Below are positions 5,379-46,212 of a stretch of 64,000 bases of DNA, in pieces. The notes beneath the pieces were generated by a model. The model was given only the letters and a program-made list of their open reading frames with translations, was not told where the DNA came from and did no database searches. Source of the stretch: an uncultured Candidatus Saccharibacteria bacterium (GTDB lineage Bacteria > Patescibacteriota > Doudnabacteria > UBA920). The translations under genes and the position numbers were made by a program. The stretch's first letter is position 1. Each line of letters starts with the position of its first letter. The stretch spans positions 76,961 to 140,960 of the forward strand of contig CAZHYL010000001.1 of assembly GCA_964536745.1 (NCBI GenBank), read 5' to 3'.

Positions 5379-5472
<94 letters not shown>

Positions 5473-7500: not shown

Positions 7501-7588
7501 GGAGAGGTCGCATAGTGGTTTAGTGCAACGGTCTTGAAAACCGTCAGGTCTAAAAGCCTCGAGGGTTCGAATCCCTCCCTCTCCGCCA
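7501..7588 (+). tRNA. tRNA-Ser (anticodon UGA), long variable arm, encoded CCA
   Basis: 5' 22 nt and 3' ~28 nt identical to the tRNA-Ser(GCU) at 5379; anticodon loop cuUGAaa. Confidence 0.85.
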
Positions 7589-8424: not shown

Positions 8425-8499
8425 CTCCTTGTAGCTCAACGGATAGAGCGCAAGCCTCCGGAGCTTGAAATGTAGGTTCGATTCCTGCCAAGGAGACCA
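8425..8499 (+). tRNA. tRNA-Arg (anticodon CCG), encoded CCA
   Basis: Acceptor ctccttg/caaggag, D-arm gctc...gagc, anticodon loop cuCCGga, T-arm GGTTCGATTCC. Confidence 0.8.
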
Positions 8500-13521: not shown

Positions 13522-14811
13522 TTAAAAGTTTTTGATATCTTTGCAAATATCTGACATGGTCGAGAAATACTCTGTCCCCGTTGCCCAGTCTACTAAAGAA
13601 CCAGCGGCAGAAGCGATAGTACCTATTACACCAGTGCCTCCAAAAGCAGAAGCCACACTAGACTCAACGCAAATATAAAAGAGTAGCCCAGCTAAAAATA
13701 AACTTACAATTACAAACACCACAAAATCTACGAATACTAAAATTGCTAACTCCCACTTTCGAGCAAGCCCTTGAAATTTACCAGCATCTTTAAAAAAGAT
13801 CCCAATAATTGCATATATATTTAGCACTATTAACAAAGGCACACCAAAGATCCAACCAACCACACTAAAAGTCAAACCAATGGTTATCAATAACCAAATG
13901 AACATAAGAATCGACATGTAGGCTTTTTCGGCATGGAATTTGGCTTTCTTAAGATTGCCATTTTTCAATTCAAAAGCCATATCGATTGCATCACCAATCC
14001 CTAAACTGATAGCGATATTAAGTAATAAAGAGACCAGCAATCCTAATCCTAAGGTCTCTGGACCAGACGCAGCTCCTGCTGCTGCAATTCCTGTTTGAAG
14101 TGCCTTTACTCCTGTTGCCGCAGCCTTTGCACCTTTTGCAGCAGTTGCGGCTGTCTTAGCGGTCTTAGCTGCTTTTGCAGCTCTTGCAGCTGCTTTAGCT
14201 CTCTGAGCAACTGCTTTCGCTGCCTGGAACCCCTCTTTTAAATTCCCTGGCTTCAAGCCTTTTTGAAAACCTTTTTGGAAAGCTCTATTACCAATCTTAT
14301 CGCCCACTTTATCTGACAGGTATTTCCGAGCACGCTGCTTAGCCTCTTCTTTTACCTTTTCTCGATTCTCTGGCGTGTCACTTTTAAAAGCATTCTTATC
14401 GCCTAAGAATTTTTCACCTGCCCATTTGGTTGGCTTATTTCGAACAACCGCATTAGCTCGTTTGTATGCCCTACTTGCTTGATCTCGCAAGCCACCTCTT
14501 CTAGAATCACGATACTGATCTTGGAACTCACCATCTTTCATCCCTTCTTTATTCATAGAAGGATACTCGCTATCCTGAAAATCTGATACGACTCTACCAG
14601 AAGACTGGTAGCCATCATTTGGGTCATCTTGAAAAGGCTGACGAGGATTCACAGAATTATACGAATCGTCATCCGTTAAACCGGTATTATTGTAACTATC
14701 TCGGATATTCTGACCTGGTTCATAATCATTATTAACAGAACCTCCCCCTGCAATATTGTTTGGAGGAGGTCCAGAATCGGAGCCTCGGTTTCTTGTATCG
14801 TCTAGCAACAT
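13522..14811 (-). CDS. Polytopic membrane protein with a ~230-aa disordered D/N/G/Q/K-rich N-terminus and an Ala/Lys repeat; last gene of the T4SS-like operon
   Basis: Low-complexity N-terminal region, then AKAAARAAKAAKTAKTAATAAKGAKAAATGVKA, then at least four TM helices. Confidence 0.55.
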   Translation of the reverse strand: MLLDDTRNRGSDSGPPPNNIAGGGSVNNDYEPGQNIRDSYNNTGLTDDDSYNSVNPRQPFQDDPNDGYQSSGRVVSDFQDSEYPSMNKEGMKDGEFQDQYRDSRRGGLRDQASRAYKRANAVVRNKPTKWAGEKFLGDKNAFKSDTPENREKVKEEAKQRARKYLSDKVGDKIGNRAFQKGFQKGLKPGNLKEGFQAAKAVAQRAKAAARAAKAAKTAKTAATAAKGAKAAATGVKALQTGIAAAGAASGPETLGLGLLVSLLLNIAISLGIGDAIDMAFELKNGNLKKAKFHAEKAYMSILMFIWLLITIGLTFSVVGWIFGVPLLIVLNIYAIIGIFFKDAGKFQGLARKWELAILVFVDFVVFVIVSLFLAGLLFYICVESSVASAFGGTGVIGTIASAAGSLVDWATGTEYFSTMSDICKDIKNF

Positions 14812-14815
14812 TATG

Positions 14816-16660
14816 TTAGGTATTTAGCTCTTCTTTGCTTTGCTCTATTTCTAATAACTGCTTTGGATCGGTAGTAATAATTTGATCCTCGACATAAGAT
14901 GCATAAATCTTAATTGCTGCGTGCTTAAGACCTGCGAAGAATATGCCTTCACCAACATCACTTTCGAGTAATAAATACTTTTCCCCTTCAGTTAAGAAGA
15001 AAGTTTCGGCAACAACATCAATAGCGGCTGGACTTTGCTTCAACAGCAACTGAATCGAAGAGTTCGTAACAATTGGTTTACCGTAAGGACTAGCCATAAA
15101 ATCGGCCACATCTTGAGTGATTGTGGTTAGCCCAAGATAATATTTACGAGCACGTTTTGCTATACCAAACACGAATCGTGCGCTATCTTCATGTTGCATC
15201 ATAATCCAAGCTTCATCCAAAACCAAAATTCTTCTCTTAAGCTCACTCCTAACAACGTTCCAAATATGACCTAAAATAATGTACATTGCTATTGGTCGCA
15301 GCTGATCTTCCAAATCTCGGATAGAGAAAACTAAAAGTTGATTCTTTAACACAACGTTAGTTTGGTTATTAAGCAATCCAGCAAAAGTTCCTTCTGTGAA
15401 CTTGCCTAATCTTTGAGCCAAACCTTCTCCTCCTACCATTCCAGAGAGAATCTCGATTAAATCACTCATAATTGGCATTTCTGCTGTAGCAAAATCGCTC
15501 TGTTCTGTAATATCTTTCTTAGCATAAGTTTGCCAAAGAGCCTTATCTAAAATAGCTTCTTCGGTTGGGTCCAGCTTACCAAGTACTAATCCCATTAATC
15601 CGACTAAATTAATAATTGCGCTACGTAAAATATCTCCCTTATCTTCATCGTCCAAACCAATAGGTAAATCGAAAGGATTGATACGAAAATCGGAGTTCAA
15701 AGAAATATTTATATAAGTACCACCAACTGCCTCTGCTAGATGCTGATACTCATTTTCTGGATCAATAACAATTACTTCAATACCAACCATTAACGATCGC
15801 AAGATTTCTAATTTAATCGAGTAAGATTTTCCTGCACCGGATTTAGCAAACACTACGAAATTAGCATTTTCCATTTGGAATCTATCAAACAAGATCAAAC
15901 TATTGTTATGCCGATTAATTCCATACAATATCCCATCATTACCAGTTAAATCAGAAGATACAAATGGAAAAGTACTAGATAACGGGCTAGTGTTTAGATT
16001 ACTGGTTACATCTAACTCATCTAATGCAAGAGGAAGTGTAGAATTAAATCCAGACTCCACAGCCAACATCGCTCTTTTTGTTACCACTAACTTAGCACCT
16101 AATGCACTCTCTAGAACTTTTGAATTTTTATCTAACTCGTCTAAAGTATCTGAATACAAAGTGAAGTACAGTGCGAACCGGAAAAAATGTTCTACACCTT
16201 GCTGTAGCTGATCTCGCAATTCTTCTACGTCATGATACGCAGTTTCTAGTAATGGGTTTCTTGCCAAACCTTTTTCTTGTTCAATGGTGATTTGAGATCC
16301 GATCTCACCAATCTTACTCTTTAACTTCTTAAGTACCATCCCAGAATCGATTGGATAGATAAACATAGAAACATCTAAAGCACTTTCCGAATTGATTATA
16401 AATGATAGCCAATTAGATGATAAAAACCTTGGGTAGGCCAGCACAAAGAAACTACGGCCAAATTTGCCATTTAGTTCAAAATAAGAATTAGTGAACTTAA
16501 GTGAAGACGGCGCCAATAAATCTTTTAAAGTAGTAACACCTTCCCGATACTCTTTTTCTACTTCTGCCAACTTTTTGTCCGCAGATATTTCGCCTTTAAG
16601 ATGCTCGAGTTCGGCCTTCTTCTTATCTATTTCGCTTTTATCTAATGAAAATAAAGCCAT
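14816..16660 (-). CDS. virB4: VirB4/TrbE/CagE-family type IV secretion ATPase, C-terminal ATPase module
   Basis: Walker A FAKSGAGKSY, Walker B ILVLDEAW, 614 aa. The start ATG overlaps the stop of the upstream ORF (TAATG). Confidence 0.85.
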   Translation of the reverse strand: MALFSLDKSEIDKKKAELEHLKGEISADKKLAEVEKEYREGVTTLKDLLAPSSLKFTNSYFELNGKFGRSFFVLAYPRFLSSNWLSFIINSESALDVSMFIYPIDSGMVLKKLKSKIGEIGSQITIEQEKGLARNPLLETAYHDVEELRDQLQQGVEHFFRFALYFTLYSDTLDELDKNSKVLESALGAKLVVTKRAMLAVESGFNSTLPLALDELDVTSNLNTSPLSSTFPFVSSDLTGNDGILYGINRHNNSLILFDRFQMENANFVVFAKSGAGKSYSIKLEILRSLMVGIEVIVIDPENEYQHLAEAVGGTYINISLNSDFRINPFDLPIGLDDEDKGDILRSAIINLVGLMGLVLGKLDPTEEAILDKALWQTYAKKDITEQSDFATAEMPIMSDLIEILSGMVGGEGLAQRLGKFTEGTFAGLLNNQTNVVLKNQLLVFSIRDLEDQLRPIAMYIILGHIWNVVRSELKRRILVLDEAWIMMQHEDSARFVFGIAKRARKYYLGLTTITQDVADFMASPYGKPIVTNSSIQLLLKQSPAAIDVVAETFFLTEGEKYLLLESDVGEGIFFAGLKHAAIKIYASYVEDQIITTDPKQLLEIEQSKEELNT

Positions 16661-17349
16661 TATGTTTCTATGTCCTTGATAGTTACTTTAGTTAACTGTC
16701 CAGCGTCTATTGCTGGGCCAGAGGCAAAATTATAGGAATTATAGACTAATTCGATTAACTGATCTGTTTTCATTCTTACAACTCTTAAACCTGAGCTAGA
16801 TAATGCAGCCGATACAGTATTCGTCCGCTCATCTAATTGCTTTTTATAAGCTACAAAGTTAGCTTCACGGTCGGAAATTTCTTTCGTCTTTCCAGAGCCA
16901 AACCACTTACTAAAGATACTTGTTGCCGCAGGATTGATACTGGTATCAAATGGCACAATCACATAAAAATTCTTATTCATTACATTAGCCGATTCAACTA
17001 ACCTATCGATAAATTCGATGTACTCTTGTGTTTGCATCCGCATCAACTCGTTAGTCTGCTTAAGCATCATAACTTTTAGTTTGTCTGTATACTCTGCGAT
17101 ATCCATCTTCCGAGATTGCATTAAAATCTGGACATGAAATTCCAAAGAATTCACAAAACGTTGATAGCTATAAATTAAAGCATTTTGTTCTTCTTCACTC
17201 TTTAAATCAAAATTAGTACTAGACACAGCTAAAACAGCTCGTAAAGTACCATTATTCATTACGATTACGTCATCTCTAATTTCAGACAATTTCAAAAACT
17301 GTTGAGTAGGAGAGCCTATTTTCTTTTTTGTCTTTATTTCATCTGCCAT
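16660..17349 (-). CDS. VirB4 N-terminal (CagE_TrbE_VirB-type) domain encoded as a separate ORF
   Basis: DDVIVMNNGTLRAVLAVSSTNFDLKSEEEQNALIYSYQRFVNSLEFHVQILMQSRK matches the conserved VirB4 N-domain pattern (..kDGsl.avl.l.G..fe...deel......l...l..l......H....r). No TM helices; 229 aa. Confidence 0.6.
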   Translation of the reverse strand: MADEIKTKKKIGSPTQQFLKLSEIRDDVIVMNNGTLRAVLAVSSTNFDLKSEEEQNALIYSYQRFVNSLEFHVQILMQSRKMDIAEYTDKLKVMMLKQTNELMRMQTQEYIEFIDRLVESANVMNKNFYVIVPFDTSINPAATSIFSKWFGSGKTKEISDREANFVAYKKQLDERTNTVSAALSSSGLRVVRMKTDQLIELVYNSYNFASGPAIDAGQLTKVTIKDIET

Positions 17350-17352
17350 AAT

Positions 17353-17808
17353 TTATTTTTGGATTTCCCTGTTTTGTTTGATTCTATTTATTAGATCTAA
17401 CTCTTCGGATTGTTGCTGCTGCAATATATAATTCAATTCTTTTATCTTAACTGCCGTTTCTTTAGCATTCTTGGGAGCAACTTTCTCTTCTACTATTTTT
17501 GGTGCCACTTGCTCAAATTCATCTCGCCCTTCCTTGTGATAAACATAAACTTTTGGACCAAACAAAAACTGAACAAAATTCCCAGCACTAGCATAGAGAG
17601 GTCGCCCATTTAATTTCCCAAATGTCAAAGCCAAAGCTGGAACTCCAGTGATACAACCCACTGCTATAGTAGCTGGAATGTTCTTACTCATAACGTAAAT
17701 TACAAAAGTAAATACAGATGCGCCAAAAACGATTGCAAATTGCTTAAAAGTTAAGCCAGCAATAATTTTATCTTCAACGTCTGTAAATTGTGGGACTGGA
17801 AACTGCAT
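17353..17808 (-). CDS. VirB3/PrgI-like small membrane protein
   Basis: 151 aa with two hydrophobic helices near the N-terminus, located immediately upstream of VirB4 as VirB3 usually is. Confidence 0.5.
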   Translation of the reverse strand: MQFPVPQFTDVEDKIIAGLTFKQFAIVFGASVFTFVIYVMSKNIPATIAVGCITGVPALALTFGKLNGRPLYASAGNFVQFLFGPKVYVYHKEGRDEFEQVAPKIVEEKVAPKNAKETAVKIKELNYILQQQQSEELDLINRIKQNREIQK

Positions 17809-17834: not shown

Positions 17835-18674
17835 CTAAATTCGGTTAACTTTAAGAGAAAGTAACAAATCGGTGATAAACTCAAACTCTTCTTGAGATAA
17901 AGGTAATACCCCATTCACCCCGCCAGCCAATTTCTGTTTACCATACTCTAAATAGTCTTTATAAAGCGGGCTTTGCTCTATATTACTCAATACTTGAAAA
18001 TAACCATACTGGCTCACAAACCCGAGCAGCTTCTGATAAAACTCCGATCGATACGATCCAGATAACACCGCTGAAGTAACTCCAGCTACATCATTGATGC
18101 TTTGAATGCTTAAACCAGAATCTTCATCCCTACCCATTGGCCTAACTCTTGAAGTAATGGGTTGCTTAGCTACCTCGACGCTGACATCGGACTGCGGCGG
18201 TTCAGGAACAGGGCTTGGCTTAGCTACAGGAGGTACCGGAGATGATCTTCGGTGAGACAGCTGATTAGGCATATTGCTAATATGAGGCATCGCCGTTGCC
18301 TTCGTACTCATCAATGGCAAACTAGAACCAGATGGTTTTGGTGGAAGAGGTCCAGAGGATTGCATTGGTCTAAGTCCCTCTGTATTTGATCTCTGAACAG
18401 GAATAGGTGTTGATGGTCTTGCCACCGGAGGGGGCACAACTGGACGAGAAACTTGAGGAGGGCTCACAGGTTGTGGTTTAACAAATTGAGGTGAAGTAGT
18501 TGTTGAGTTAGTAGTCGAGGGTTGAGGGGTTTTTAAAATCTCTTCCAATTCTGCAATCTGCTTATCATTCATCAAGGATGTTAAAGCCAACCAATCTTGT
18601 TTTTCTTGAGAGGTTAGAATGCTGGAGGTTTGTACCAACTGTTTAATTTGTAAAAGTCTTGCTTGGTCTATCAT
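17835..18674 (-). CDS. Hypothetical proline-rich protein (T4SS-like operon)
   Basis: 279 aa, a central Pro/Ser/Thr/Val-rich low-complexity segment, no TM helix. Confidence 0.55.
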   Translation of the reverse strand: MIDQARLLQIKQLVQTSSILTSQEKQDWLALTSLMNDKQIAELEEILKTPQPSTTNSTTTSPQFVKPQPVSPPQVSRPVVPPPVARPSTPIPVQRSNTEGLRPMQSSGPLPPKPSGSSLPLMSTKATAMPHISNMPNQLSHRRSSPVPPVAKPSPVPEPPQSDVSVEVAKQPITSRVRPMGRDEDSGLSIQSINDVAGVTSAVLSGSYRSEFYQKLLGFVSQYGYFQVLSNIEQSPLYKDYLEYGKQKLAGGVNGVLPLSQEEFEFITDLLLSLKVNRI

Positions 18675-19571
18675 TTATTTCTTTTTGCGTTGTTTTAAGT
18701 CTTCTAATTTTGCTTGAATCTCTTCTTCTTGTTTTGACTTAATCGTTTCATCTATATCGACATTGGTTCCTTGATCGAAAACCAGACCACGCCTTGGTTG
18801 GGCTTTCAAATCCAAATCTTTTGCTAACGGAATCTTGAAATCAGAAACCGTTCGCTCTTGCTTCTGAGGAACTATTGGGGGTAAAGGCCCTTCAGCAACA
18901 GAAGTCACATCTTCTTCATCTATTCCCGAAAAAGCCATATTTATATCTAATTCAGAAATTTGCTCTGGGACATCTTTAGGATCTACAACCTCTGGCAACA
19001 TTTCCCACATCAAGACATTTCTATCACAAAAATTGTACAACTTAAATATGGATTGAAGTATGAACTTCTGATATGGATCTAAATTTTTTACATTTTCACC
19101 ATCATTAAAATATTTAACTAGACCTAAAGCATCGCTACCCAAACCTTTTGATGAGGCAAAAGATAGATAATCACTTAGCCAACTAGAAATAACAGGCGCG
19201 CCCTTTTTAGAAGAAACAACAATTTCTTTTCCTCCCACCGGTTCATTATTGGTGCTGATTATATTTTTAACCTGTTTACATAACTCGACCTCATCCGGAA
19301 TGAAATTATACTGTGCCAAATACTCCTCAAACTGCTCAGCTAAATCAAACCCTTCTATCTCATAAGCGAGTAGTAAAGATTGCTTCATTAAGCTAGCAAG
19401 TTGTGTCGCGGATAAGCTATTCATTCTAATATAGCTTAACTGAATCTTTAACTCATTAGTTAAGGGTTGTCCTGTTTCATCTACTCCAGCAGTCAACACC
19501 TTGATCGCTAAGTACTGATCCTTTGTATTAAGAATATCTTGCAGCTTTATAATTTGATTTTGAGCGCTCAT
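18675..19571 (-). CDS. Hypothetical protein (T4SS-like operon)
   Basis: 298 aa, no TM helix; its start overlaps the stop of the upstream giant ORF (ATGA). Confidence 0.55.
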   Translation of the reverse strand: MSAQNQIIKLQDILNTKDQYLAIKVLTAGVDETGQPLTNELKIQLSYIRMNSLSATQLASLMKQSLLLAYEIEGFDLAEQFEEYLAQYNFIPDEVELCKQVKNIISTNNEPVGGKEIVVSSKKGAPVISSWLSDYLSFASSKGLGSDALGLVKYFNDGENVKNLDPYQKFILQSIFKLYNFCDRNVLMWEMLPEVVDPKDVPEQISELDINMAFSGIDEEDVTSVAEGPLPPIVPQKQERTVSDFKIPLAKDLDLKAQPRRGLVFDQGTNVDIDETIKSKQEEEIQAKLEDLKQRKKK

Positions 19572-22500
19572 ATTTTACCTCTTGCTTTGCCTAAGGAAGC
19601 GACAACGTCACCACCTAAACCTGTTAACGCACCAGCAGCATGCTTCTTTAATATTTCTGCAGCTGTGTAAGAACTCATCCTACTCTCCAGCTGTGCCAAA
19701 GCTTTTTTGTTACCTGAAAGCTTTTTAAGTTCTTCGACCTCGCCAGAAATGAATTCATTGTCACCACTTTCATTTTCGTAAAAGATTTCGTTTGGCTTCT
19801 TTTCCCAAACTTTTTTCTTTCCAGCGGTTTTAGATAACTTCTCCATCTGTTCTGAGCGGGAATTCCAATTCACCACACCCTGTGAATTAATATTTGTAGC
19901 TTTACCTAATGCCCGATTACCATTTTGCATATTTAAATTGGACAACTCGCTTGCCATTTGATTCCTGACAACAACTGGGACTCTACCAAATTTATCCGAC
20001 ATGAATTTTTTAAACCCATCGATATTATTCTTAAACCCATGCTCCGAAAGTAGATCTTTAAATCCTCCTTCTTTCGCGATTTTCTTGGCAATTGCCGAAG
20101 CTTGAGCTAGATTATTATTTTTCATGGCATTGTTAAACGCAGCTCTTAATGAGTCGACATCATCAACGCCTTCAAACTTTTTACCTTCTTCATGCTCACT
20201 CGCAAGTCTATCTGTTTGCTGTTGCTGACTTGCTGGGAATTGACGTTCTGCAACAATTTTCTCCATCCCAGCAAGTACTGTTGCTCGATCATTCGCATCC
20301 CACTTACTAACACCTAAATCAGTCCTTAAGTTATCATCCGCTGTTAGATCGCCTTGTAACTTGTCTATATCTGCTTGGATTACCTCAGCGTTAATCTCTA
20401 GAGCCTTATCCGCTTCCAGTACTGATGGCATAACCACAGCAGTAGACGGGACTGCCGTCGCCGGTAAAGCCTTAAGTATATTATCAATATTTTCTTTCGA
20501 AGTTTCGAGTGGGTTTCTTCGCGACTCATAGCCAGCCCGAATACTATCTATTTCAGTCTGTAGTTCTGTACCCCTTTGATTATTACCAGCTGCCAAAGCC
20601 TTAGCTCTTTGTTCATTCAACGGTGCTAGTTCTGTTTCTTCTGCCTTGTTTAATTCGTTAATATCCTCACCTAGACGTTTTTGATACACTTCTGCTTGTG
20701 CTTTGGTAATCTGATCACTGCCCAATCTTCGATAACTCGCGATGTCCGATAAGTCTGTCCTGCCTTGAGAAATTTTATCGCCGTTCTGAATCCTTTCATC
20801 ATCTGTTAACAGGCCTGCAAATCTATCTGACCTCCTCTGGACAGCTTTTGCACTATTACCTGTTAATTTCCAGGCTAACATTTTTGCTGCCTGTACCTTA
20901 TTTAGACCAGCCTGCTTGGCATAATCATCAAGTGGCTTTCTGGCTTTTTCTAAACGCTCCATTTGTGCTTTCTTTGGCTCAGACCACAAGCGATCCTTCA
21001 ATTTCTTACCCGTAATCATTGGTTGAGCGAGGGCAGACACACCAGCCGCCAATCGTGGATTATTCTCTTTTAGTCTATTAGATATCGAGTCTGCTGCATT
21101 ATCTTTAGCCCACATTCCAAGAGCTTTTGGACCTTTCCTAGTTGTCCAGTCCATACCCTTCTTAGCAAAGTCAACTACTTGTTTCGCGCCAGCGCCACCA
21201 AATGAAAGAGCAAACTTCATACCAATAAACAAGAACAACAAAACAATGAAATGAGAAATCACTGTTAATGCAAACTCGGTTAACTCTCCTGCGAACGTAC
21301 CTGTAGATTTAATCACATCTCCCATTCTTCCAGAGAAAGTAACTGCTACAAGAGCTGTAATATTTAAAAAGAAGGCAAGAATAGGTACTGTGAATGCATA
21401 CTTCAAAAAGTGACTCCACCACTGATTAGCATAAGTTCTTGTTTCTGGCAGGATCCTTCCAACATAAGCCAGAGGCGACAGCATATACAATACCCACAGA
21501 GCTACCAGCCGAATAAACATAAAAGCGATTAAAGCAACGAATGACCAAAACGCAGCCCCTGCAAGCACCCACAAAGCGATCGGTTTGAATAAATCACTGG
21601 CACTACCATCCACAGTAAAGGTATTCCCACTATCAGTTACACTATACTCGCCACTCCTAAAAGTTTTGATTGGATCTACCATTAACTTTTGCCCAAGAGC
21701 TTCTACAACTTTACTCTTAGCGGGTAAAAATTGAGACTGAACTGTGTCTGCGATACCAACAATACCTTGACCAATCACCAAACTAAAGTTAACTAACAAT
21801 GCCATTAACACTAAAGTGACAATAAACCCACGAGACTTTGAAGCATCTTCTTGCTGGAATAGAATTCTAAGTCCCATAACCAGCAGAGCGATAATGAAAG
21901 CAATATTGGAAATATTTCTAATAATAACCCAGCCTGGATAAATTACATTTACAAACTCGTCTCTGTATGGCTGAATTTTTAACAGTGCGTTCAATACAGG
22001 AACCAAAATGTACGCAAAAATATAGTACATTATGGACGTCATCAATAGAATTATGTACGCGATTACTTTTCGAAGAAAAGCAAATAGATTACTTGCAATT
22101 CCACCGTCTTGAAGCTCTGAACTCTTGGCCTCTGCTGTGACAGTATCCGCAAATCCATATTTCGCAAAGTTTGGATCAGAGTCACACTTACTCTTTTGAT
22201 CTTCTGGAACATCCGCCTTACAAGCTGTTTTAATCTCGTCTAGAGTACGATAAACCTCAACAGTAAACTTAGCTTCGCTATTATATAAAACATATACATT
22301 GGTATTTTGACCAATCCCTACTTTTGCAGAAAAACCTTTTATAAAAGCAACAACCTTAAACTCATTAGTAGCGATGGGTTTACCTGCTTCAGCTTTATCA
22401 TTCCTATTACGAAGCCAAGCAGAACTATTTAAGACAGGGCTAAACTGATCTGGTAAGGGTTTTTCCGTACCGTTACCGTTAGTCAAACCTTTATCTGATT

Positions 22501-23587
22501 CAAAAAATGCTTTCGAACAATCGGTACTAAAATAGGCTGGGGCGCAAGACTCTAAATTTTTAACCGGAGTATCAGCATAATTAAACCCTAAATTTGAACC
22601 CTTATATGCAGGTTCTAAATCATAATTGAACCAAGAATTATCCTTTTTTGGTAATGTAAAAGTATCGTTGACAGTCAATTGCAAAGCAGGATCTTCGGAT
22701 GTCCACTTCATGTAGATCGGATCCGGTCCATTATTCCCGCTAAAGGTCATGGAGTTATCTGAAAGCAATACTCTGTATTTTGAACGCAAACCTTTTCCCG
22801 CACTGTTTGCAGTTACAGTCATCCCAATTTTTGTATAATCAACCCCCGTCTTAGCACCGGTACCAACAGGCCCCCCTGCTGTTACGCCATCGGGTAGTGG
22901 TGGAAGTTGAGTTGGCTGGTCACCCTGTATAGCTTGATCACTATAAGAAATGCCAAGAATTCCCGGGAACTTATAGGAAGTCCAAGATTGTCCGTAATAT
23001 ACATATACAGAAGTGTTAATCAAACAAGGCTGCTTATCACAAACTGTTGAATTTGAAGTGGGAGCATTAGGGAAAAACGACTTCACTGTAGCAGGAACCC
23101 TTGCCGCATAGCCATACTCAGTGATTTTAGTCTTATCTGATGAATCTGCCACAGTATAAAACTGGGCTGGAACTTCCAGTGGTTTATCAGATTTTACAGT
23201 CCTTGTTACTACGTCACCCCTTGCTGATAAAGTCTGTATAGTTGCATAAGCGTAAATATAAAAATTATGCTTTTGTTTGTTATCTTTACAATACTTTGCA
23301 AGCTCTAATGTATAAGAGTCTTTTATATCAAAAGCAACAGCAAACTGAATATTAAACTGTTCATTCCAATTCAATTTCTTTCTGTCAGAGATAGGTCCAG
23401 TGGGAATGGATTTCCAACCGCTACTATCTAATTCACAAGAAGAAACAGCAGCATTAACCGTAGGGGTAATGGCAAAAACAGGCATAAACAAAGAAGCTAT
23501 GATAACACTTAACAGTGCTACCATGCTTCTTTTCTTCAAATTTTGAGTCAGAAATTTAAATAATTTTGATATTGGTTTCAAAGCCAC
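19568..23587 (-). CDS. Giant VirB6/TrbL-like polytopic membrane protein (1339 aa) with a signal peptide, a large N-terminal extracellular domain and a ~540-aa hydrophilic coiled-coil C-terminal extension
   Basis: Signal/TM at aa ~20-45, a ~450-aa extracytoplasmic domain, at least six TM helices between aa ~500-790 in a VirB6-like arrangement, then a charged coiled-coil tail. Confidence 0.6.
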   Translation of the reverse strand: MALKPISKLFKFLTQNLKKRSMVALLSVIIASLFMPVFAITPTVNAAVSSCELDSSGWKSIPTGPISDRKKLNWNEQFNIQFAVAFDIKDSYTLELAKYCKDNKQKHNFYIYAYATIQTLSARGDVVTRTVKSDKPLEVPAQFYTVADSSDKTKITEYGYAARVPATVKSFFPNAPTSNSTVCDKQPCLINTSVYVYYGQSWTSYKFPGILGISYSDQAIQGDQPTQLPPLPDGVTAGGPVGTGAKTGVDYTKIGMTVTANSAGKGLRSKYRVLLSDNSMTFSGNNGPDPIYMKWTSEDPALQLTVNDTFTLPKKDNSWFNYDLEPAYKGSNLGFNYADTPVKNLESCAPAYFSTDCSKAFFESDKGLTNGNGTEKPLPDQFSPVLNSSAWLRNRNDKAEAGKPIATNEFKVVAFIKGFSAKVGIGQNTNVYVLYNSEAKFTVEVYRTLDEIKTACKADVPEDQKSKCDSDPNFAKYGFADTVTAEAKSSELQDGGIASNLFAFLRKVIAYIILLMTSIMYYIFAYILVPVLNALLKIQPYRDEFVNVIYPGWVIIRNISNIAFIIALLVMGLRILFQQEDASKSRGFIVTLVLMALLVNFSLVIGQGIVGIADTVQSQFLPAKSKVVEALGQKLMVDPIKTFRSGEYSVTDSGNTFTVDGSASDLFKPIALWVLAGAAFWSFVALIAFMFIRLVALWVLYMLSPLAYVGRILPETRTYANQWWSHFLKYAFTVPILAFFLNITALVAVTFSGRMGDVIKSTGTFAGELTEFALTVISHFIVLLFLFIGMKFALSFGGAGAKQVVDFAKKGMDWTTRKGPKALGMWAKDNAADSISNRLKENNPRLAAGVSALAQPMITGKKLKDRLWSEPKKAQMERLEKARKPLDDYAKQAGLNKVQAAKMLAWKLTGNSAKAVQRRSDRFAGLLTDDERIQNGDKISQGRTDLSDIASYRRLGSDQITKAQAEVYQKRLGEDINELNKAEETELAPLNEQRAKALAAGNNQRGTELQTEIDSIRAGYESRRNPLETSKENIDNILKALPATAVPSTAVVMPSVLEADKALEINAEVIQADIDKLQGDLTADDNLRTDLGVSKWDANDRATVLAGMEKIVAERQFPASQQQQTDRLASEHEEGKKFEGVDDVDSLRAAFNNAMKNNNLAQASAIAKKIAKEGGFKDLLSEHGFKNNIDGFKKFMSDKFGRVPVVVRNQMASELSNLNMQNGNRALGKATNINSQGVVNWNSRSEQMEKLSKTAGKKKVWEKKPNEIFYENESGDNEFISGEVEELKKLSGNKKALAQLESRMSSYTAAEILKKHAAGALTGLGGDVVASLGKARGKI

Positions 23588-23659
23588 AATCGTGAAAATA
23601 ATGAGCTATTTTTCTCTCAATCTTTAAAATAATTATACCACACCGACCCAAATTTTCCC

Positions 23660-23698
23660 AAATAATTTTAAAAGGCAATCCCGTGACAGGATTGCCTT
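23660..23698 (-). terminator. Intra-operon hairpin plus U-run (attenuator/partial terminator) between the Cys-rich gene and the VirB6-like gene
   Basis: aaggcaatcc-cgtgaca-ggattgcctt is a perfect 10-bp stem. On the minus strand it is followed by TTTTAAAATTATTT. Confidence 0.45.
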
Positions 23699-23709
23699 CA
23701 AAATTCTTG

Positions 23710-24846
23710 CTATTGAGCCAGACAGTCTTGGATTCCGATAGACGAATCTAGACCGAATATACATTCTGTGATCGTACTTATGGATTCAGTGGCCTTCTGT
23801 CTACCAAGGTTTGTATAATTTTGTGCTTGTGTCTGTGTAGTATTGTACTGACTATCACACTGACTCACACTATCAGCGAATACATCTCCTTCTTGAGGTG
23901 AACTTGTTTGTGATGGAGAAATAATTGGAGGTGAAGTTGTGGCTTGCTTATTTGTGATACACCCCAAATAACTTTGTGGTTGGTATGTTGTTGAAGGATT
24001 AGTTCCTCCTCCAGTGTCTGTTCCTGGATCTAATACATCAGATAATCCCGGTACTGCAGATAAATTGTCTATCGAAACATTTAGCACCCGACCCGGCCTT
24101 CCTTGGCCATCCCATACTCCAGATAATCTAGAAACCTCTGTGAACAAATCATTGCATTCTGGATTAGATGGAGTAGAAGAACAATACTCCACACAACTCT
24201 TCGCATCACTACAACCCGCTGGTGCATTACCAGCGTAAATTAAATTATTCAAGCTGCCGATAATATTATTTTCCAAACCACTGATCGCACCGACTCCATA
24301 GTTAAACGATTTATCCTTACTTACATCTTGAGCTCCAAGAACTCTAGAACCTTGCTCTAAGCCAAGTGCCAAAACAGCACATTCTTGTTCGGAAGATTTT
24401 TGATCACACAGCTCTGCGCAACTGTTCAACCCATCACAGGTTGCAAAATAACCTGCTTGTAAATAACTAGAAAAAGTTAGGGTCTTTTTTAATTGCTCCG
24501 CTGTCATACTTCCGTTACGGAAACTAACTAGTGCGCAAATTTCTAAGTTGTTTGAATCTTCACAAAATTCAAAACAAGATTTTTGATCCATACAATTTCC
24601 AAGTTGTGCAATCGGATAAACAAAACCTCGAGGAAAAAATGGAATACTCACATTCTGCCCAAGAACATTACCTGAAGATTTAGAAAGAGTTGGTGAGCTC
24701 AACTGTTGGCTAATACGCTGGGTTAGTTCTAATTTTGTTGTCGCCGCAGTTGCAAAATTCTGTGACACTAAGAAAAGACCTAGCAGCATTACAGCTACCA
24801 GAGTATATGAATAAAGATACTTTTTAATTTGCGAATGGGTTAACAT
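23710..24846 (-). CDS. Secreted cysteine-rich protein with three tandem C-x4-C-x3-C-x7-9-C modules
   Basis: Signal peptide, then repeats CMDQKSCFEFCEDSNNLEIC / CDGLNSCAELCDQKSSEQEC / CSDAKSCVEYCSSTPSNPEC. Confidence 0.65.
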   Translation of the reverse strand: MLTHSQIKKYLYSYTLVAVMLLGLFLVSQNFATAATTKLELTQRISQQLSSPTLSKSSGNVLGQNVSIPFFPRGFVYPIAQLGNCMDQKSCFEFCEDSNNLEICALVSFRNGSMTAEQLKKTLTFSSYLQAGYFATCDGLNSCAELCDQKSSEQECAVLALGLEQGSRVLGAQDVSKDKSFNYGVGAISGLENNIIGSLNNLIYAGNAPAGCSDAKSCVEYCSSTPSNPECNDLFTEVSRLSGVWDGQGRPGRVLNVSIDNLSAVPGLSDVLDPGTDTGGGTNPSTTYQPQSYLGCITNKQATTSPPIISPSQTSSPQEGDVFADSVSQCDSQYNTTQTQAQNYTNLGRQKATESISTITECIFGLDSSIGIQDCLAQ

Positions 24847-25078
24847 AAATATCTTTTAAAGGGTTAGCTTGAGTGCTACTTTCAGACTCACCTAGCACCT
24901 CGCCAGCAGACGGTAATTCTGCAGGATTCTCTGTTGGAGCTGAGCTTAAATCGATGTTTGTTGGTTTTGGTAATTCTGCTGAAAAAATTCCACCCCTAAC
25001 AAATAAGGCATAATATACTCCAAAGACCAGTAAAACTACCCCTATTAATAAAGCTATATTTTTTAAGTTAAAAGTCAT
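24824..25078 (-). CDS. Small bitopic membrane protein (84 aa), overlapping the downstream gene by 23 nt
   Basis: N-terminal TM helix (IALLIGVVLLVFGVYYALFV) and a Pro/Glu-rich tail; tightly spaced in the operon. Confidence 0.4.
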   Translation of the reverse strand: MTFNLKNIALLIGVVLLVFGVYYALFVRGGIFSAELPKPTNIDLSSAPTENPAELPSAGEVLGESESSTQANPLKDIYVNPFAN

Positions 25079-25080
25079 TA

Positions 25081-27039
25081 CTAGAATCCTCCCCCATAGT
25101 AACCTCTCGGTGAGTTATATGGTATTACCCTAAGTGTTGTAGTCGCACCGTTTACAGCAGGGGATGGACTAGGCGCAGAATGCTGAGCAGTATTAACTGT
25201 TATATTGCTATTAGTAATTGGAATTGTTCCACTCGTTGGATTGGTCTTCTTTGGCGGTGTTTTTAAAGCTTGGCTAAATATTGTCTCTAAGAACGATTTA
25301 CCTGTTTCGGTTAACACAGAAGGGGTTTTACTTGGATTCAAAATAATTCCACCAAGTACCTTGCTCATAAGGTTTTCTGCATTCTTTGAAGCTTGTTGTG
25401 GATTGTCTTGGTTGTAACGAATTTGCTCGCCAACCATTTCTTGTGTAATTCCTTCGATGACACCCTTAGATAAACTTCCTGCATCATTAATTGAACTACA
25501 CTGCTCTGTAATACCACCATCAACTTTCGTAACGACATCTTTCATATTGTCTATCGCAGCCTTTGTTTCATTAACTGCTGGAATATATTCTGAATGAGCC
25601 ATCTCGTGCTGTGCTTCGTACTGTTTTTGAGTCTGAGAAGCTTCTAAATATTTTTTGGCTGCTTCGTATGCATCAGTAATTTTTTGCTTATCGGCTTCTT
25701 CGACTGGTTTACAAGTTCGTGTGCTTAAGAATCCTGCACCATTATTCACTTCTAATTTTGCAGATTCACGGCTAGCAGCCATTAGTTTTCCAAACTCTTC
25801 TTGGTACTGACTAAATACAATAGAAGAGTCGCACTCATTAGACATAACTCCACTTATTTTTCTGAAGACTCTTTCGTCATTCCAGTTTTCTAGCTCATAC
25901 ATCTGATAACATTTATCATAGAGCTCGGTTTCCACTAATGCCTTAGCTGTATCCAATGCTTGCTTTTTTGCGGTTTCGTCTGTAGCAAGCTCTGCGTTCA
26001 AGAATGAAGTCATAATTAGTTGCTTTTGCTTGTTCCCATCATAATTCTTTTTAATCATTGCCGGTGCATAGACTTGCTTTGCAAGCGCATCTACAATTTT
26101 TTCATAATTCTGAACAGTGAGTTTTGGTTTCACTTCATTTATTGCTTCGGTTGTCTTTTGTTCTGTAACATCTACAGCAACTGATGCCGCGATAGCTTTA
26201 AAAATATCTTGCTTAGCTTTATTTAACTGTTGTTCCAAACTTGCAACATGCCCATTGATAGCACTCATTCTTGGTTCTATTTCAGCCAAAGTATCTACAT
26301 ATGCTTCTTTTAATTGTTCGTTCCAAGCCGCAATCACTAAAGTCTGTTTTAATGTCTGCTGAACTGTCTTGTAGCAAACTTGGCGATATTTAAGAATTCC
26401 CAATTTCTTTGTGATATACAATGTTAAATTAGCTTTGGTTTGATCGCCTAATGTTAACAAACTAGTGGAAAGTTTTTCATTGTTGGTAGCTCTTGGAGCT
26501 TTGGTTGGAATTTGATTTGCCGCTTCGTGAATAATAGTTTGGTTACTTGCAACAGTCGTTGAATCCCCTGCTACATCGCTATTACCAGAGCCTCCCCCTG
26601 TATTGCCACTGCCATTATCGTACCCATCTGGAACATTATAGTTATCTGGAATTACAAGTCTATCATCTAACTCTTCAATGTTTACTCCATCCGAGCCATT
26701 GTTGCTTGTTAAATCATTAAGAGTACTAATAGCCGATAAGTCACCTCCGAGAACATCACAAGTCGACGTAGCTATTCCTAAACCTCGTCTTACTGGACCA
26801 TACTGAACAGGTAAGCCTTCAACAAATTGTTTTACAGTTTGCAATGATGCCTGCACAGTGTTCATCGCTGAATCAATTCCAAGCAACGCACCCTGAATTG
26901 CGTGACCAACAACCTGAATCCCTGCATTGAGCCAATCAAACCCCCACAACGCATCACTGTTCTTTGGTTGAAAAACTACAGTAGCGCTTAGGACTAAACA
27001 GATTGCAATAATTATTTTTTTAAATCTAAATAATTTCAT
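25081..27039 (-). CDS. Large secreted protein (652 aa), T4SS-like operon
   Basis: N-terminal signal peptide, a Gly/Asn/Ser-rich segment, 8 Cys, coiled-coil-prone alpha regions. Confidence 0.6.
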   Translation of the reverse strand: MKLFRFKKIIIAICLVLSATVVFQPKNSDALWGFDWLNAGIQVVGHAIQGALLGIDSAMNTVQASLQTVKQFVEGLPVQYGPVRRGLGIATSTCDVLGGDLSAISTLNDLTSNNGSDGVNIEELDDRLVIPDNYNVPDGYDNGSGNTGGGSGNSDVAGDSTTVASNQTIIHEAANQIPTKAPRATNNEKLSTSLLTLGDQTKANLTLYITKKLGILKYRQVCYKTVQQTLKQTLVIAAWNEQLKEAYVDTLAEIEPRMSAINGHVASLEQQLNKAKQDIFKAIAASVAVDVTEQKTTEAINEVKPKLTVQNYEKIVDALAKQVYAPAMIKKNYDGNKQKQLIMTSFLNAELATDETAKKQALDTAKALVETELYDKCYQMYELENWNDERVFRKISGVMSNECDSSIVFSQYQEEFGKLMAASRESAKLEVNNGAGFLSTRTCKPVEEADKQKITDAYEAAKKYLEASQTQKQYEAQHEMAHSEYIPAVNETKAAIDNMKDVVTKVDGGITEQCSSINDAGSLSKGVIEGITQEMVGEQIRYNQDNPQQASKNAENLMSKVLGGIILNPSKTPSVLTETGKSFLETIFSQALKTPPKKTNPTSGTIPITNSNITVNTAQHSAPSPSPAVNGATTTLRVIPYNSPRGYYGGGF

Positions 27040-27773
27040 AAGTCGTAATTATACTTACGAATCAAATCCATACGTTCCGATTCCATTGCATTTGTAATTT
27101 CAAAAAATAAAACTCCAGCCGCTGCGCGGTCCTTAGAGCTTTGATTATGAGCGATGGTATCCAGCATGTTTAAAACTACACCGTACTGCATCAATTTTAA
27201 TCTGTGAAATCGAACAAGAGGTTTTGGAACAGCAAGTGTTTTTAATTCACTAACAATTCTTTCGGCAACTGGAATAGCTTCAGCTGCTGCAGTAGAATCT
27301 TTGGTGCTTAACACACTCAGAACAATTACCGATCCATAGTAGTCTTCAATCAAAGTGGATTGATCTACATATGACTCGATTGAAAACTCATCTACATCTA
27401 CTGCGTTAACAGGAATAGTTTGTAAATTGTCGTCGCTTAAAATATGGCTTATACTTTGTTCAGCCTCTGTAGATAAACCTAGAACCGAACCCTCTGAAAA
27501 GGCAGGATCGATTAAAGCAGATAGATTATTTTTTTCTTCAACTAAATTATCAATTCCAGTGGAAGAGACTGGTGGTAAGTTTACCTCATCTATCGATTTC
27601 ACTTCTGTTGTATCGTTCGCTTGAAGAAACTTAAGTCCGGTTAAGTTACCAAGTAATAAAGGTTCCCTTGCAAAAGTAAGTCCAATTGTGACGATAACAA
27701 AAAATCCAATAAGTCCATAATGACCTAAAGTAAATCCGAGCGATTCAAACTTCCCAAATAGTTTTTGTTTCAT
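27036..27773 (-). CDS. Bitopic membrane protein, first gene of the T4SS-like operon (VirB8-like by size and topology only)
   Basis: 245 aa with a single TM at aa ~20-42 and an extracytoplasmic domain; ATGA overlap with the next gene. Confidence 0.5.
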   Translation of the reverse strand: MKQKLFGKFESLGFTLGHYGLIGFFVIVTIGLTFAREPLLLGNLTGLKFLQANDTTEVKSIDEVNLPPVSSTGIDNLVEEKNNLSALIDPAFSEGSVLGLSTEAEQSISHILSDDNLQTIPVNAVDVDEFSIESYVDQSTLIEDYYGSVIVLSVLSTKDSTAAAEAIPVAERIVSELKTLAVPKPLVRFHRLKLMQYGVVLNMLDTIAHNQSSKDRAAAGVLFFEITNAMESERMDLIRKYNYDL

Positions 27774-45823: not shown

Positions 45824-46212
45824 GGGGATGCCGGATTTTGACAGGACTTTACAATCGTTTTATATGCAAGACGAGCCAGCTTGCAAGCTCGATAATCTTA
45901 CAAGCATCAATATGTGCTAACGCATACAAAAAGGTCGTTGCTGCATTTCAAAATGCGCAACTTGCACCTGCTTTCGCTTAACATTTAAGCAAAGCCCAGC
46001 CTCTAGCTTTTCTTCGCGCTAGAACCAGCTTGGATTATTAGAAGATATAATTTTGTGATCTGATATACATTACAAAATCGAAAATTTGTATATCGCCTAG
46101 CATTCTTCGTTGTCCGTTGGTTAGGGTGCTAGTACTATAACGGACTAATCTTGTGAATAATGGAACGGTTAGTTAGTTTTGGACGCGGGTTTAACTCCCG
46201 CCATCTCCACCA
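45824..46212 (+). ncRNA. ssrA: tmRNA (SsrA), ~389 nt
   Basis: 5' GGGGAUGCCGGAUUUUGACAGGAC pairs with the 3' CAUCUCC-A-CCA, including a G3:U70 wobble (Ala identity). T-arm gcggg-TTTAACT-cccgc. Internal tag reading frame ...AAFQNAQLAPAFA-TAA. smpB lies 2.5 kb away. Confidence 0.8.

What the first reader, a model, noticed from the sequence alone, without database searches (positions are those of the whole stretch)
19568..23587. A 1339-aa VirB6-like protein with a large extracellular N-domain and a long coiled-coil cytoplasmic tail
The architecture is a signal/TM segment, a ~450-aa extracytoplasmic domain, a ~290-aa region with at least six TM helices, and a ~540-aa charged coiled-coil C-terminus rich in K/E/A/Q. 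This far exceeds canonical VirB6 (~300 aa). It resembles the extended VirB6/TcpH/TraG-like proteins of obligate intracellular or epibiotic bacteria, whose N-domains are proposed to reach the surface. The extracellular domain is a candidate host-contact module.
Basis: inference. Interest (0 to 1): 0.55.

Follow-up and report, generated by a model that had tools for sequence, protein, structure and literature searches.

The report
Extended VirB6 of Patescibacteria T4SS
This gene encodes an unusually large version of VirB6, the central membrane subunit of the chromosomal type IV secretion machine that ultra-small Patescibacteria need to live on other bacteria; its outward-facing domain evolves very fast and may be a host-contact part, but the protein family itself is already known.

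Summary
The ORF is real: 19568-23587, minus strand, 1339 aa, GTG start.

- **Membrane core (about 497-800).** It belongs to the TrbL/VirB6 superfamily. Pfam TrbL matches end to end at 25.3 bits (cut-off 25.9). The five best Foldseek PDB hits are all TrwI/VirB6 of plasmid R388.
- **Operon.** The gene is first in a translationally coupled operon that also encodes PrgI/VirB3, TrsD and VirB4. The setting is chromosomal, with no relaxase or coupling protein. This is the known Patescibacteria T4SS, which is essential in Southlakia epibionticum.
- **N-terminal region.** It has a cleavable signal peptide and two confidently modelled beta-rich subdomains with four cysteine pairs.
- **Tail.** It is not a 540-aa coiled coil. 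It is a confidently modelled all-helical domain (pLDDT 90) with no PDB structural match. Its length is strikingly constant across the family (median 525 aa).
- **New observations.** The N-domain is hypervariable although VirB4 is 83-96% identical in the same loci. The N-domain, core and tail show largely uncoupled similarity patterns, which suggests module exchange.

Host contact by the N-domain remains an inference. The number of membrane passes is unresolved. Verdict: a member of a known family with an undescribed but plausible functional twist.

The parts
23632..23661 (-). Promoter-like site (TTGGGA, 18 nt, TG-TATAAT) upstream of the gene
   Evidence: Consensus scan, 10 of 12 matches with an extended -10 TG. 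The number of such sites in the region is not above the shuffle expectation, so this is only suggestive.
23670..23696 (-). Hairpin GGCAATCC-7 nt-GGATTGCC followed by TTTT, between the upstream Cys-rich gene and the VirB6 gene
   Evidence: Read directly from the sequence. The terminator scan did not report it because the T-run is short.
23450..23587 (-). Residues 1-46: basic n-region, hydrophobic core 22-40, VNA|A cleavage-type site (Sec signal peptide)
   Evidence: Hydropathy and charge. An A-x-A motif before the first conserved Cys is present in homologues.
22883..23449 (-). N1 ectodomain, residues 47-235: beta-rich, Cys51/100/183/188, hypervariable
   Evidence: AF2 strands 60-216, pLDDT mostly 80-92. 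C51 and C100 are invariant in 56 sequences. BLAST detects N1 in 1 of 15 long syntenic loci. phmmer detects it in 9 of 152 representatives, 2 of which are the query itself.
22118..22882 (-). N2 ectodomain, residues 236-490: beta-sandwich-like, with conserved GLRxKYRV and FxVEVY motifs and Cys348/357/456/468
   Evidence: AF2 pLDDT mostly above 90. Conserved motifs are seen in the alignments. N2 is detectable in 39 of 152 representatives. Only weak Ig-like, adhesin or pilin fold matches were found.
21143..22117 (-). VirB6/TrbL membrane core, residues 491-815 (helices 497-537, 543-576, 582-600, 602-620, 627-645, 667-702, 717-758, 765-796)
   Evidence: Pfam TrbL E=1.5e-5, residues 565-785 against profile 2-214 of 215. 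Foldseek top hits are TrwI/VirB6 (8rtd_L, 8rt9_F, 7o3v_F/J/G), probability 1.00. TrwI is the only PDB sequence hit of the core profile. The core is 45-69% identical in syntenic loci with VirB4 at 79% identity or more, falling to 30-40% in the most distant loci.
20303..21142 (-). Tail part A, residues 816-1095: basic juxtamembrane segment, then five long helices (27-40 residues each)
   Evidence: AF2 model of residues 801-1339, pLDDT 90.3, pTM 0.70. Heptad-like signal at about 1000-1083 only. There are 11 K/R in residues 791-850.
19571..20302 (-). Tail part B, residues 1096-1339: compact domain of short helices with small beta hairpins
   Evidence: AF2. No PDB fold match, best E=0.32. Detectable in 55 of 152 representatives.
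18675..19571 (-). Translationally coupled downstream gene (298 aa, no TM segment, no family match)
   Evidence: Its ATG overlaps the VirB6 TGA as ATGA, and AAGAGG lies upstream. It follows the VirB6 gene directly in nearly all related loci.
17835..18674 (-). Conserved 279-aa soluble protein with a Pro-rich centre; unknown T4SS-linked component
   Evidence: Synteny. No TM segment. No Pfam or NCBIfam match.
17353..17808 (-). PrgI / VirB3-like protein (151 aa, two hydrophobic segments)
   Evidence: Pfam PrgI E=4.5e-8, 34 bits against a cut-off of 27.
16660..17349 (-). TrsD-like protein (229 aa), homologous to the N-terminal part of VirB4
   Evidence: NCBIfam TrsD/TraD E=2.6e-6 and VirB4 N-terminal regions. 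Described as typical of Patescibacteria T4SS in PMC12102498.
14816..16660 (-). VirB4 ATPase (614 aa), CD1110 / MPF-FATA type
   Evidence: NCBIfam conju_CD1110 at 347.6 bits against a cut-off of 325. Pfam TraG P-loop. It is 83-96% identical in the closest syntenic loci.

Best explanation
**What it is.** The gene encodes the VirB6-family subunit of a chromosomally fixed, conjugation-derived type IV secretion system (MPF-FATA-like) of a Patescibacteria bacterium, probably Candidatus Doudnabacteria or a close relative.

**Proposed working.**
1. A Sec signal peptide exports the N-terminus.
2. Two disulfide-stabilised beta-rich subdomains (residues 47-490) stay outside the cell. They are tethered to the first hydrophobic helix of the VirB6 core.
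3. By analogy with R388 TrwI and the modelled PrgH, the core (about 497-800) assembles as a ring, probably a pentamer. It sits in the cytoplasmic membrane above the VirB4/TrsD/PrgI ATPase complex and forms the translocation and assembly platform.
4. The roughly 525-aa all-helical C-terminal domain lies in the cytoplasm. There it probably docks the ATPase complex and the two conserved soluble proteins encoded immediately downstream. It may stand in for the coupling or receptor functions that this system lacks.
5. The ectodomain projects through the thin wall. Because it diverges far faster than the rest of the machine, it is the best candidate in the locus for contact with the host cell surface.

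**Shown.** ORF, domain layout, TrbL/VirB6 relationship of the core, operon context, family-wide architecture, and hypervariability with mosaic similarity.

**Inferred.** Pentamer, topology details, cytoplasmic partners and host contact.
For: **Core is VirB6-like.**
- Pfam TrbL covers the full profile at E=1.5e-5. Homologues score 17.5-38 bits around the 25.9 cut-off.
- The AF2 model of residues 1-820 has pLDDT 82.
- The five best Foldseek PDB hits are all TrwI/VirB6 chains: probability 1.00, TM-score on target 0.42-0.58, 275-293 aligned columns.
- The core profile hits only TrwI among 177,635 PDB sequences (E=0.26).

**Context.**
- The operon order is VirB6, 298-aa protein, 279-aa protein, PrgI, TrsD, VirB4, with an ATGA overlap to the next gene.
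- The same order, flanked by UvrD, KsgA, RadA and RecG, occurs in dozens of Patescibacteria MAGs.
- No relaxase or coupling-protein-sized ORF lies in the 64 kb window.

**Literature.**
- The Patescibacteria T4SS has TrsD, PrgI, VirB4 and VirB6, and usually no relaxase (PMC12102498).
- It is essential in Southlakia epibionticum. There SEML1_0011 (998 aa) and SEML1_0013 (1088 aa) are VirB6-like by structure and carry C-terminal helical 'ARM repeat' domains (PMC10633639 supplements).

**Compartments.**
- The signal peptide and AXA site are conserved.
- Family N-regions carry a median of 5 Cys, even in 87% of members. Tails carry a mean of 0.06 Cys.
- The segment after the last hydrophobic helix has 11 K/R in 60 residues.

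**Tail.** pLDDT 90.3, pTM 0.70. Family tail length has an interquartile range of 498-550 aa.

**Variability.**
- In loci where VirB4 is 83-96% identical, the core is 48-69% identical. The tail is 27-46% where BLAST detects it. N2 is 33-38% in only 4 of 15 loci. N1 is detectable in 1 of 15.
- Locus L009 shares the upstream genes closely, but its N-domain is about 20% identical.
Against: - The Pfam score is just below the gathering cut-off, and NCBIfam gives no match.
- Fold similarity to TrwI is moderate (TM-score 0.42-0.58, rmsd 6-9 A).
- Topology is not settled. Hydropathy gives 6-8 hydrophobic segments, and a plain six-pass reading would put the tail outside.
- No oligomer model could be made.
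- The ectodomain has no confident match to any adhesin or receptor-binding fold. There were only low-probability Ig-like, arrestin, Cna or pilin hits, plus probability 0.9-0.99 matches of about 165 columns to Ig/FnIII-like accessory domains.
- Fast divergence could reflect relaxed constraint rather than host-driven selection.
- No VirB2-like pilin was recognised in the window, so the 'pilus platform' role known for other VirB6 proteins may not apply here.
Confidence: 0.8

Rival explanations
1. The identity is the same (VirB6 of the Patescibacteria T4SS), but the N-domain is a structural, wall-spanning part of the machine. It would stand in for the missing VirB5, VirB8 or VirB9-10 stalk and channel elements, and it would not recognise the host. 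Its divergence would reflect weak constraint on a scaffold.
For: - No VirB5 or VirB8 homologue is recognised in the locus.
- VirB8 is rarely detectable in Patescibacteria (PMC12102498).
- In R388 a VirB5 pentamer sits directly on VirB6 (PMC12624023), so a fused ectodomain could fill that position.
- Conserved motifs and Cys pairs in N2 point to a conserved scaffold.
Against: - N1 is lost to BLAST detection in loci where VirB4 is over 90% identical. N-domain length ranges from 77 to 606 aa across the family. That is more variation than expected for a fitted structural part.
- Locus L009 keeps all neighbouring extracytoplasmic genes similar but has a different N-domain.
Confidence: 0.3
2. The protein is a transporter permease, for example ABC-2 type as KEGG assigns to the Southlakia homologues (K01992), with accessory domains. 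It would not be a T4SS component.
For: - KEGG K01992 labels and an 'ABC transporter permease' label appear for SEML1_0011 and SEML1_0013 in the supplements of PMC10633639.
- The Pfam TrbL score is marginally below the cut-off.
Against: - All high-probability PDB fold hits for the membrane core are TrwI/VirB6. No ABC-2 permease appears among them.
- TrwI is the only PDB sequence hit of the core profile.
- Viral-library hits are also TrbL-like proteins.
- There is no ABC ATPase gene in the operon. The gene is instead fixed next to PrgI, TrsD and VirB4 in every locus examined.
Confidence: 0.03
3. The locus is a conjugative element (ICE) of Gram-positive type, and this is its TcpH/PrgH/Orf15-like VirB6 used for DNA transfer.
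For: - VirB4 is of the CD1110 / MPF-FATA conjugative type.
- PrgI and TrsD are conjugation-system families.
Against: - No relaxase, coupling protein, integrase or repeats of an element were seen in the 64 kb window. The flanks are housekeeping genes: RecG, RadA, UvrD, KsgA, RecO, IleRS, ArgRS, RNR.
- The same chromosomal neighbourhood is kept across species whose VirB4 is 67-96% identical.
- The literature reaches the same conclusion for the phylum (PMC12102498).
Confidence: 0.07

Closest known systems
VirB6 homologues of the Patescibacteria T4SS (e.g. Southlakia epibionticum SEML1_0011 and SEML1_0013; Quinonero-Coronel et al. 2025, Wang et al. 2023)
   Same: - Chromosomal T4SS with VirB4, TrsD and PrgI and no relaxase.
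- Large proteins (998 and 1088 aa) with a VirB6-like membrane region and a C-terminal helical domain.
- The locus is essential for epibiotic growth in Southlakia.
   Different: - This protein is longer (1339 aa), because of a 450-aa signal-peptide-led ectodomain.
- This lineage has one copy in the locus rather than two.
- No VirB2-like pilin array lies beside it.
- The papers I read do not describe the domain architecture or its variability.
TrwI/VirB6 of plasmid R388 (PDB 7O3V, 8RT9, 8RTD) and A. tumefaciens VirB6
   Same: - Fold of the polytopic helical core.
- A conserved stretch aligns with TrwI residues 142-231, and a local GWLIIR match is present.
- It sits next to VirB3 and VirB4 genes.
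   Different: - TrwI is 342 aa, with no ectodomain and no large cytoplasmic domain.
- It works in a diderm with VirB5, VirB2 and VirB7-10, none of which is recognised here.
- Sequence identity is only 13-16%.
Extended VirB6 proteins of Rickettsiales (RvhB6a-e, 674-1154 aa)
   Same: - A VirB6/TrbL domain flanked by large hydrophilic extensions.
- Found in host-dependent bacteria with reduced genomes (PMC2653234; PMC12857230).
   Different: - Diderm alpha-proteobacterial P-type system with several tandem paralogues.
- No detectable sequence relationship of the extensions was found here.
TcpH (pCW3) and PrgH (pCF10), Gram-positive VirB6-like proteins; F-plasmid TraG
   Same: - Monoderm-type T4SS context (PrgH, TcpH).
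- TcpH has a large C-terminal cytoplasmic domain (own knowledge).
- F TraG joins a VirB6-like region to a large domain that meets the recipient cell (own knowledge).
- PrgH is modelled as a pentameric platform (bioRxiv 10.64898/2025.12.18.695078).
   Different: - No Pfam or NCBIfam match to these families.
- Their extra domains are C-terminal, not an N-terminal exported domain.
- They serve conjugation.

Membership tests
TrbL/VirB6 superfamily (Pfam PF04610) | Match to the family HMM at or above the curated score | tested here: inconclusive
   25.3 bits against a cut-off of 25.9, E=1.5e-5, covering profile positions 2-214 of 215. Of 7 homologues scanned, 5 score 17.5-38 bits and 2 have no match at E<=0.01; 2 of the 7 pass the cut-off.
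TrbL/VirB6 superfamily (Pfam PF04610) | Fold of the polytopic helical core like solved VirB6 (TrwI) | tested here: met
   Foldseek against the PDB: ranks 1-5 are TrwI chains, probability 1.00, TM-score on target 0.42-0.58. TrwI is the sole PDB sequence hit of the core profile.
TrbL/VirB6 superfamily (Pfam PF04610) | Encoded with VirB4 and VirB3 homologues | tested here: met
   PrgI, TrsD and VirB4 lie in the same operon. The arrangement is conserved in related loci.
TrbL/VirB6 superfamily (Pfam PF04610) | N-terminus outside, C-terminus inside, five passes with a large external loop (A. tumefaciens topology; own knowledge) | tested here: inconclusive
   Loop charges fit a five-pass register for residues 550-790. 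Loops 606-668 and 750-771 are acidic, loop 713-730 is basic and the tail start is basic. The extra hydrophobic helix 497-537 is unplaced. No topology predictor was available.
TrbL/VirB6 superfamily (Pfam PF04610) | Pentameric ring at the centre of the inner-membrane complex | not testable with these tools
   Only monomer predictions could be run.
Extended VirB6 (as defined in PMC12857230 after Alvarez-Martinez and Christie 2009) | Five or more hydrophobic helices plus one or more large hydrophilic domains | tested here: met
   Core with 6-8 hydrophobic segments, a 450-aa N-domain and a 525-aa C-domain. The definition is quoted. That definition mentions central or C-proximal domains, so the N-terminal one is additional.
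Patescibacteria-clade T4SS (PMC12102498) | MPF-FATA-type VirB4 with TrsD and PrgI nearby, chromosomal, no relaxase close by | tested here: met
   All 36 related loci come from MAGs or a SAG: 32 are titled as Patescibacteria lineages, 3 carry Gammaproteobacteria or Micavibrio labels and 1 is unclassified.
TcpH / F-type TraG families | Sequence match to the family models (e.g. Pfam TraG_N; NCBIfam conjugation models) | tested here: not met
   No such family appears in the Pfam scan at E<=10 or in the NCBIfam scan at E<=0.01.

The most novel reading that the evidence does not exclude
In this pilin-poor branch of Patescibacteria, the exported N-terminal domain fused to VirB6 may be an exchangeable host-recognition tip of the secretion machine. 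It would be a functional counterpart of VirB5 or of adhesins. Its cassette-like replacement between lineages, independent of the membrane core and the cytoplasmic tail, would set which host bacteria the epibiont can exploit.
Probability: 0.25. Interest if true: 0.7.

Novelty: new member of a known kind. Interest (0 to 1): 0.42.

Why it matters
The T4SS is one of the few systems shown to be essential for the epibiotic life of Patescibacteria, and what it transports and how it meets the host are unknown. VirB6 is the only recognised T4SS component in this locus with a large exported domain. That domain is the fastest-evolving part of an otherwise extremely conserved machine, so it is a concrete and testable candidate for host specificity. 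The conserved 525-aa cytoplasmic domain, together with the two coupled soluble proteins, is a candidate for the missing substrate-recruitment function in a system without a coupling protein.

Tried and rejected

1. The search for homologous proteins returned only 5-6 relatives for the full protein and for residues 1-820. For the N-domain alone it returned only a 100%-identical fragment of the same protein. Its word index is too insensitive here, so the N-domain result says nothing about modular reuse.
2. A sequence profile of the whole family against PDB sequences gave only weak helical-repeat hits, such as apolipoproteins (E 0.1-1), for the tail.
4. The BFVD viral library gave no receptor-binding-protein match for the N-domain, only TrbL-like membrane proteins.

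**Readings considered and rejected**
5. Lipoprotein: C51 is not preceded by a lipobox in homologues (DVT, DLV, AGT), and it is paired with the invariant C100.
6. Second copies in the same MAG:
   - L035/L014 is one gene split at a contig end.
   - L008 and L016 sit on short contigs.
   - L008, the only one of the two that extends past the gene, is followed by the same downstream gene.
   - They are more likely co-binned populations than paralogues.
7. Tail co-variation with the downstream 298-aa protein: the two loci with the closest tails (L002, L003) also have the closest 298-aa proteins. Over 13 loci, however, the correlation is weak (rho 0.23, p 0.46).

**Not found or not attempted**
8. 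No VirB2-like pilin was found among the small membrane ORFs of the window.
9. dN/dS was not attempted, because the closest orthologues are only 40-50% identical.
Full report
**Observation.** The ORF exists as described, at 19568..23587 on the minus strand: 1339 aa with a GTG start. The deposited copy of the same protein starts at the internal Met22 (1318 aa). The upstream 21 residues are conserved in homologues and supply the basic n-region of a signal peptide, so I keep the GTG start.

Hydropathy gives the following layout:
- a signal-type segment at 22-40, followed by VNA|A;
- a hydrophilic region from 47 to about 495, containing eight cysteines;
- six to eight hydrophobic segments between 497 and 790;
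- a hydrophilic, Cys-free tail at 815-1339.

**What the core is.** Pfam TrbL/VirB6 matches residues 565-785 across the whole profile (2-214 of 215). The E-value is 1.5e-5 and the score is 25.3 bits, 0.6 bit below the curated cut-off. Of seven homologues scanned, five score 17.5-38 bits and two give no match, so the family straddles the threshold.

An AlphaFold2 model of residues 1-820, built on 56 sequences, has mean pLDDT 82. Foldseek against the PDB puts TrwI/VirB6 chains of the R388 T4SS at ranks 1-5, with probability 1.00, TM-score on target 0.42-0.58 and 275-293 aligned columns. A profile of the core alone finds TrwI as the only PDB sequence at E<=10 (E=0.26). The viral structure library also returns TrbL-like proteins. 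No transporter fold competes with these hits.

**Context.** The gene heads a tight operon:
- VirB6 gene;
- 298-aa soluble protein, whose ATG overlaps the VirB6 stop as ATGA;
- 279-aa soluble protein;
- PrgI/VirB3;
- TrsD-like protein;
- VirB4 of the CD1110/MPF-FATA type;
- a 429-aa membrane protein.

Upstream lie four exported or membrane-anchored proteins of unknown family (245, 652, 84 and 378 aa). The flanks are housekeeping genes: RecG, RadA, UvrD, KsgA, RecO, IleRS, ArgRS, RNR and ClpB-like. The window has no relaxase, no ORF of coupling-protein size and no integrase.

A scan of one genome per species found 36 related loci, nearly all in Patescibacteria MAGs. They are labelled Candidatus Doudnabacteria, 'uncultured Candidatus Saccharibacteria' or Patescibacteria group. 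Gene order is the same there, including the housekeeping flanks.

This is the chromosomal Patescibacteria T4SS described by Quinonero-Coronel et al. (PMC12102498). Wang et al. found it essential in Southlakia epibionticum (PMC10633639). In their supplementary tables two proteins of 998 and 1088 aa in that cluster are VirB6/T4SS-like by structure. Both carry C-terminal helical domains, and both are scored essential.

**Family-wide architecture.** An exhaustive HMMER search with residues 1-820 found 10,413 cluster representatives at E<=1e-3. Among 144 full-length representatives in the top 150:
- the region before the core is 77-606 aa long (median 313);
- the tail is tightly distributed (median 525 aa, interquartile range 498-550);
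- N-regions carry a median of 5 Cys, with an even number in 87% of members;
- tails carry almost no Cys (mean 0.06).

Together with the conserved signal peptide and the basic segment after the last hydrophobic helix (11 K/R in residues 791-850), this places the N-domain outside and the tail inside.

That arrangement needs an odd number of membrane passes. Loop charges and the TrbL/TrwI register fit the canonical five-pass VirB6 topology for residues 550-790. The long hydrophobic helix 497-537 remains unplaced, and a seven-pass alternative also exists. I could not resolve this with the tools available.

**The N-domain.** The model shows two beta-rich subdomains: N1 (about 55-230) and N2 (about 250-490). 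Most blocks have pLDDT above 85. Fold matches are generic. Matches of probability 0.9-0.99 over about 165 columns go to Ig/FnIII-like accessory domains (GH3 enzymes, AlkC). Low-probability matches go to arrestin, the Cna collagen adhesin and fimbrial pilins. C51 and C100 are invariant in 56 sequences, and N2 has conserved GLRxKYRV and FxVEVY motifs.

**The tail.** A separate model of residues 801-1339 is very confident (pLDDT 90.3, pTM 0.70). It has five long helices of 27-40 residues, then a compact domain of short helices. It has no PDB structural match (best E=0.32) and no family match. A crude heptad scan exceeds shuffles mainly at residues about 1000-1083. 'Coiled-coil tail' is therefore an overstatement. 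It is a conserved folded domain.

**Variability.** In the 11 syntenic loci where VirB4 is 83-96% identical, the comparison gives:
- TrsD 63-87% and PrgI 57-78%, while the housekeeping proteins UvrD and RadA are only about 58-77%;
- VirB6 core 48-69%;
- tail 27-46% where BLAST detects it;
- N2 33-38%, detectable in only 4 of the 15 syntenic loci examined;
- N1 detectable in 1 of those 15.

Among 152 representatives, N1 is found in 9 (two of them the query itself), N2 in 39, tail part A in 19, tail part B in 55 and the core in all.

Similarity ranks are discordant:
- P0002 has the best N-domain match (N1 40%, N2 53%) but only 54% in the core and 26% in tail part B.
- P0010 has the best core match (71%) but only 37% in N2.
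- P0045 has the best tail match (46% and 56%) but no detectable N-domain similarity.

Locus L009 shares the four upstream genes closely, but its N-domain is about 20% identical.

Over 51 representatives, pairwise distances in the core do not correlate with those in N2 (Mantel r=-0.03) or N1 (r=0.09). They correlate weakly with the tail (r about 0.22). N1 correlates with N2 (r=0.37), and tail part A with tail part B (r=0.57). Saturation and alignment noise in the N-domain weaken this test. The pattern is nevertheless what module exchange would give.

**Interpretation.** The protein is the VirB6 subunit of the essential, non-conjugative Patescibacteria T4SS. By analogy with R388, and with the modelled PrgH pentamer, its core should form the central ring above VirB4.

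Two large appendages are specific to this family: an exported, disulfide-bonded, fast-evolving ectodomain, and a conserved cytoplasmic helical domain. I consider host-surface contact the most likely role of the ectodomain. A purely structural, wall-spanning role is a serious rival. For the tail I propose docking of the ATPase complex and of the two coupled soluble proteins, in a system that lacks a coupling protein. That proposal is inference only.

**Novelty.** The family and its T4SS role are published, and the protein itself is in public databases with a TrbL tag. This is therefore a new member of a known kind. The following points are not described in the papers I could read:
- the signal-peptide-led ectodomain;
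- the constancy and confident fold of the tail;
- the hypervariable, mosaic behaviour of the modules.

They make the host-specificity question testable.

Noticed in passing
window 14816-17808 (-) and loci L002-L012: VirB4 is 83-96% identical, and TrsD and PrgI are also highly conserved, between species whose housekeeping proteins (UvrD, RadA, KsgA) are only about 53-77% identical. The ATPase module is therefore under unusually strong constraint.
   Followed up: partly
window 23710-25078 (-): A 378-aa exported, Cys-rich protein and an overlapping 84-aa single-TM protein lie just upstream of the VirB6 gene. They are present in only some related loci (L009, L013, L015, L018), so they form a variable insert in an otherwise fixed gene order.
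   Followed up: partly
window 25081-27773 (-): Two conserved-in-synteny proteins have one N-terminal TM or signal segment and no family match (652 aa and 245 aa). The 245-aa one has the bitopic layout expected of a VirB8-like component, but no sequence evidence supports that. They are only about 20-25% identical between species, except in L009.
   Followed up: partly
window 13522-14811 (-): A 429-aa protein downstream of VirB4 has a disordered, acidic/Asn-rich N-terminus, a Lys/Ala-rich stretch and three to four C-terminal TM helices. It is conserved in synteny and matches no family.
   Followed up: no
locus L024, 17038-20364: In one related genome the VirB4 ORF is 1108 aa instead of about 614. 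This could be a fusion with the downstream gene or a missed stop or frameshift.
   Followed up: no
window 31788-33014 (+) and 33076-34881 (-): A LysM-CHAP peptidoglycan hydrolase and a DUF11 surface protein are kept at the edge of the T4SS neighbourhood in most related loci. The hydrolase is a candidate VirB1-like wall-opening enzyme.
   Followed up: no
window 60196-63186 (-): A cluster of small proteins carries prepilin-type N-terminal methylation motifs (62216-62788, 62785-63186) next to a 586-aa exported protein. It is probably a type IV pilus or pseudopilus locus.
   Followed up: no
window 45824-46212 (+); 5379-5469, 7501-7585, 8425-8496 (+): A tmRNA gene and three tRNA genes.
   Followed up: no
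loci L023, L034, L037: Three related loci sit in MAGs labelled Gammaproteobacteria or Micavibrio. They are on short or divergent contigs. They probably reflect mis-binning or mislabelling, but transfer outside Patescibacteria was not excluded.
   Followed up: no
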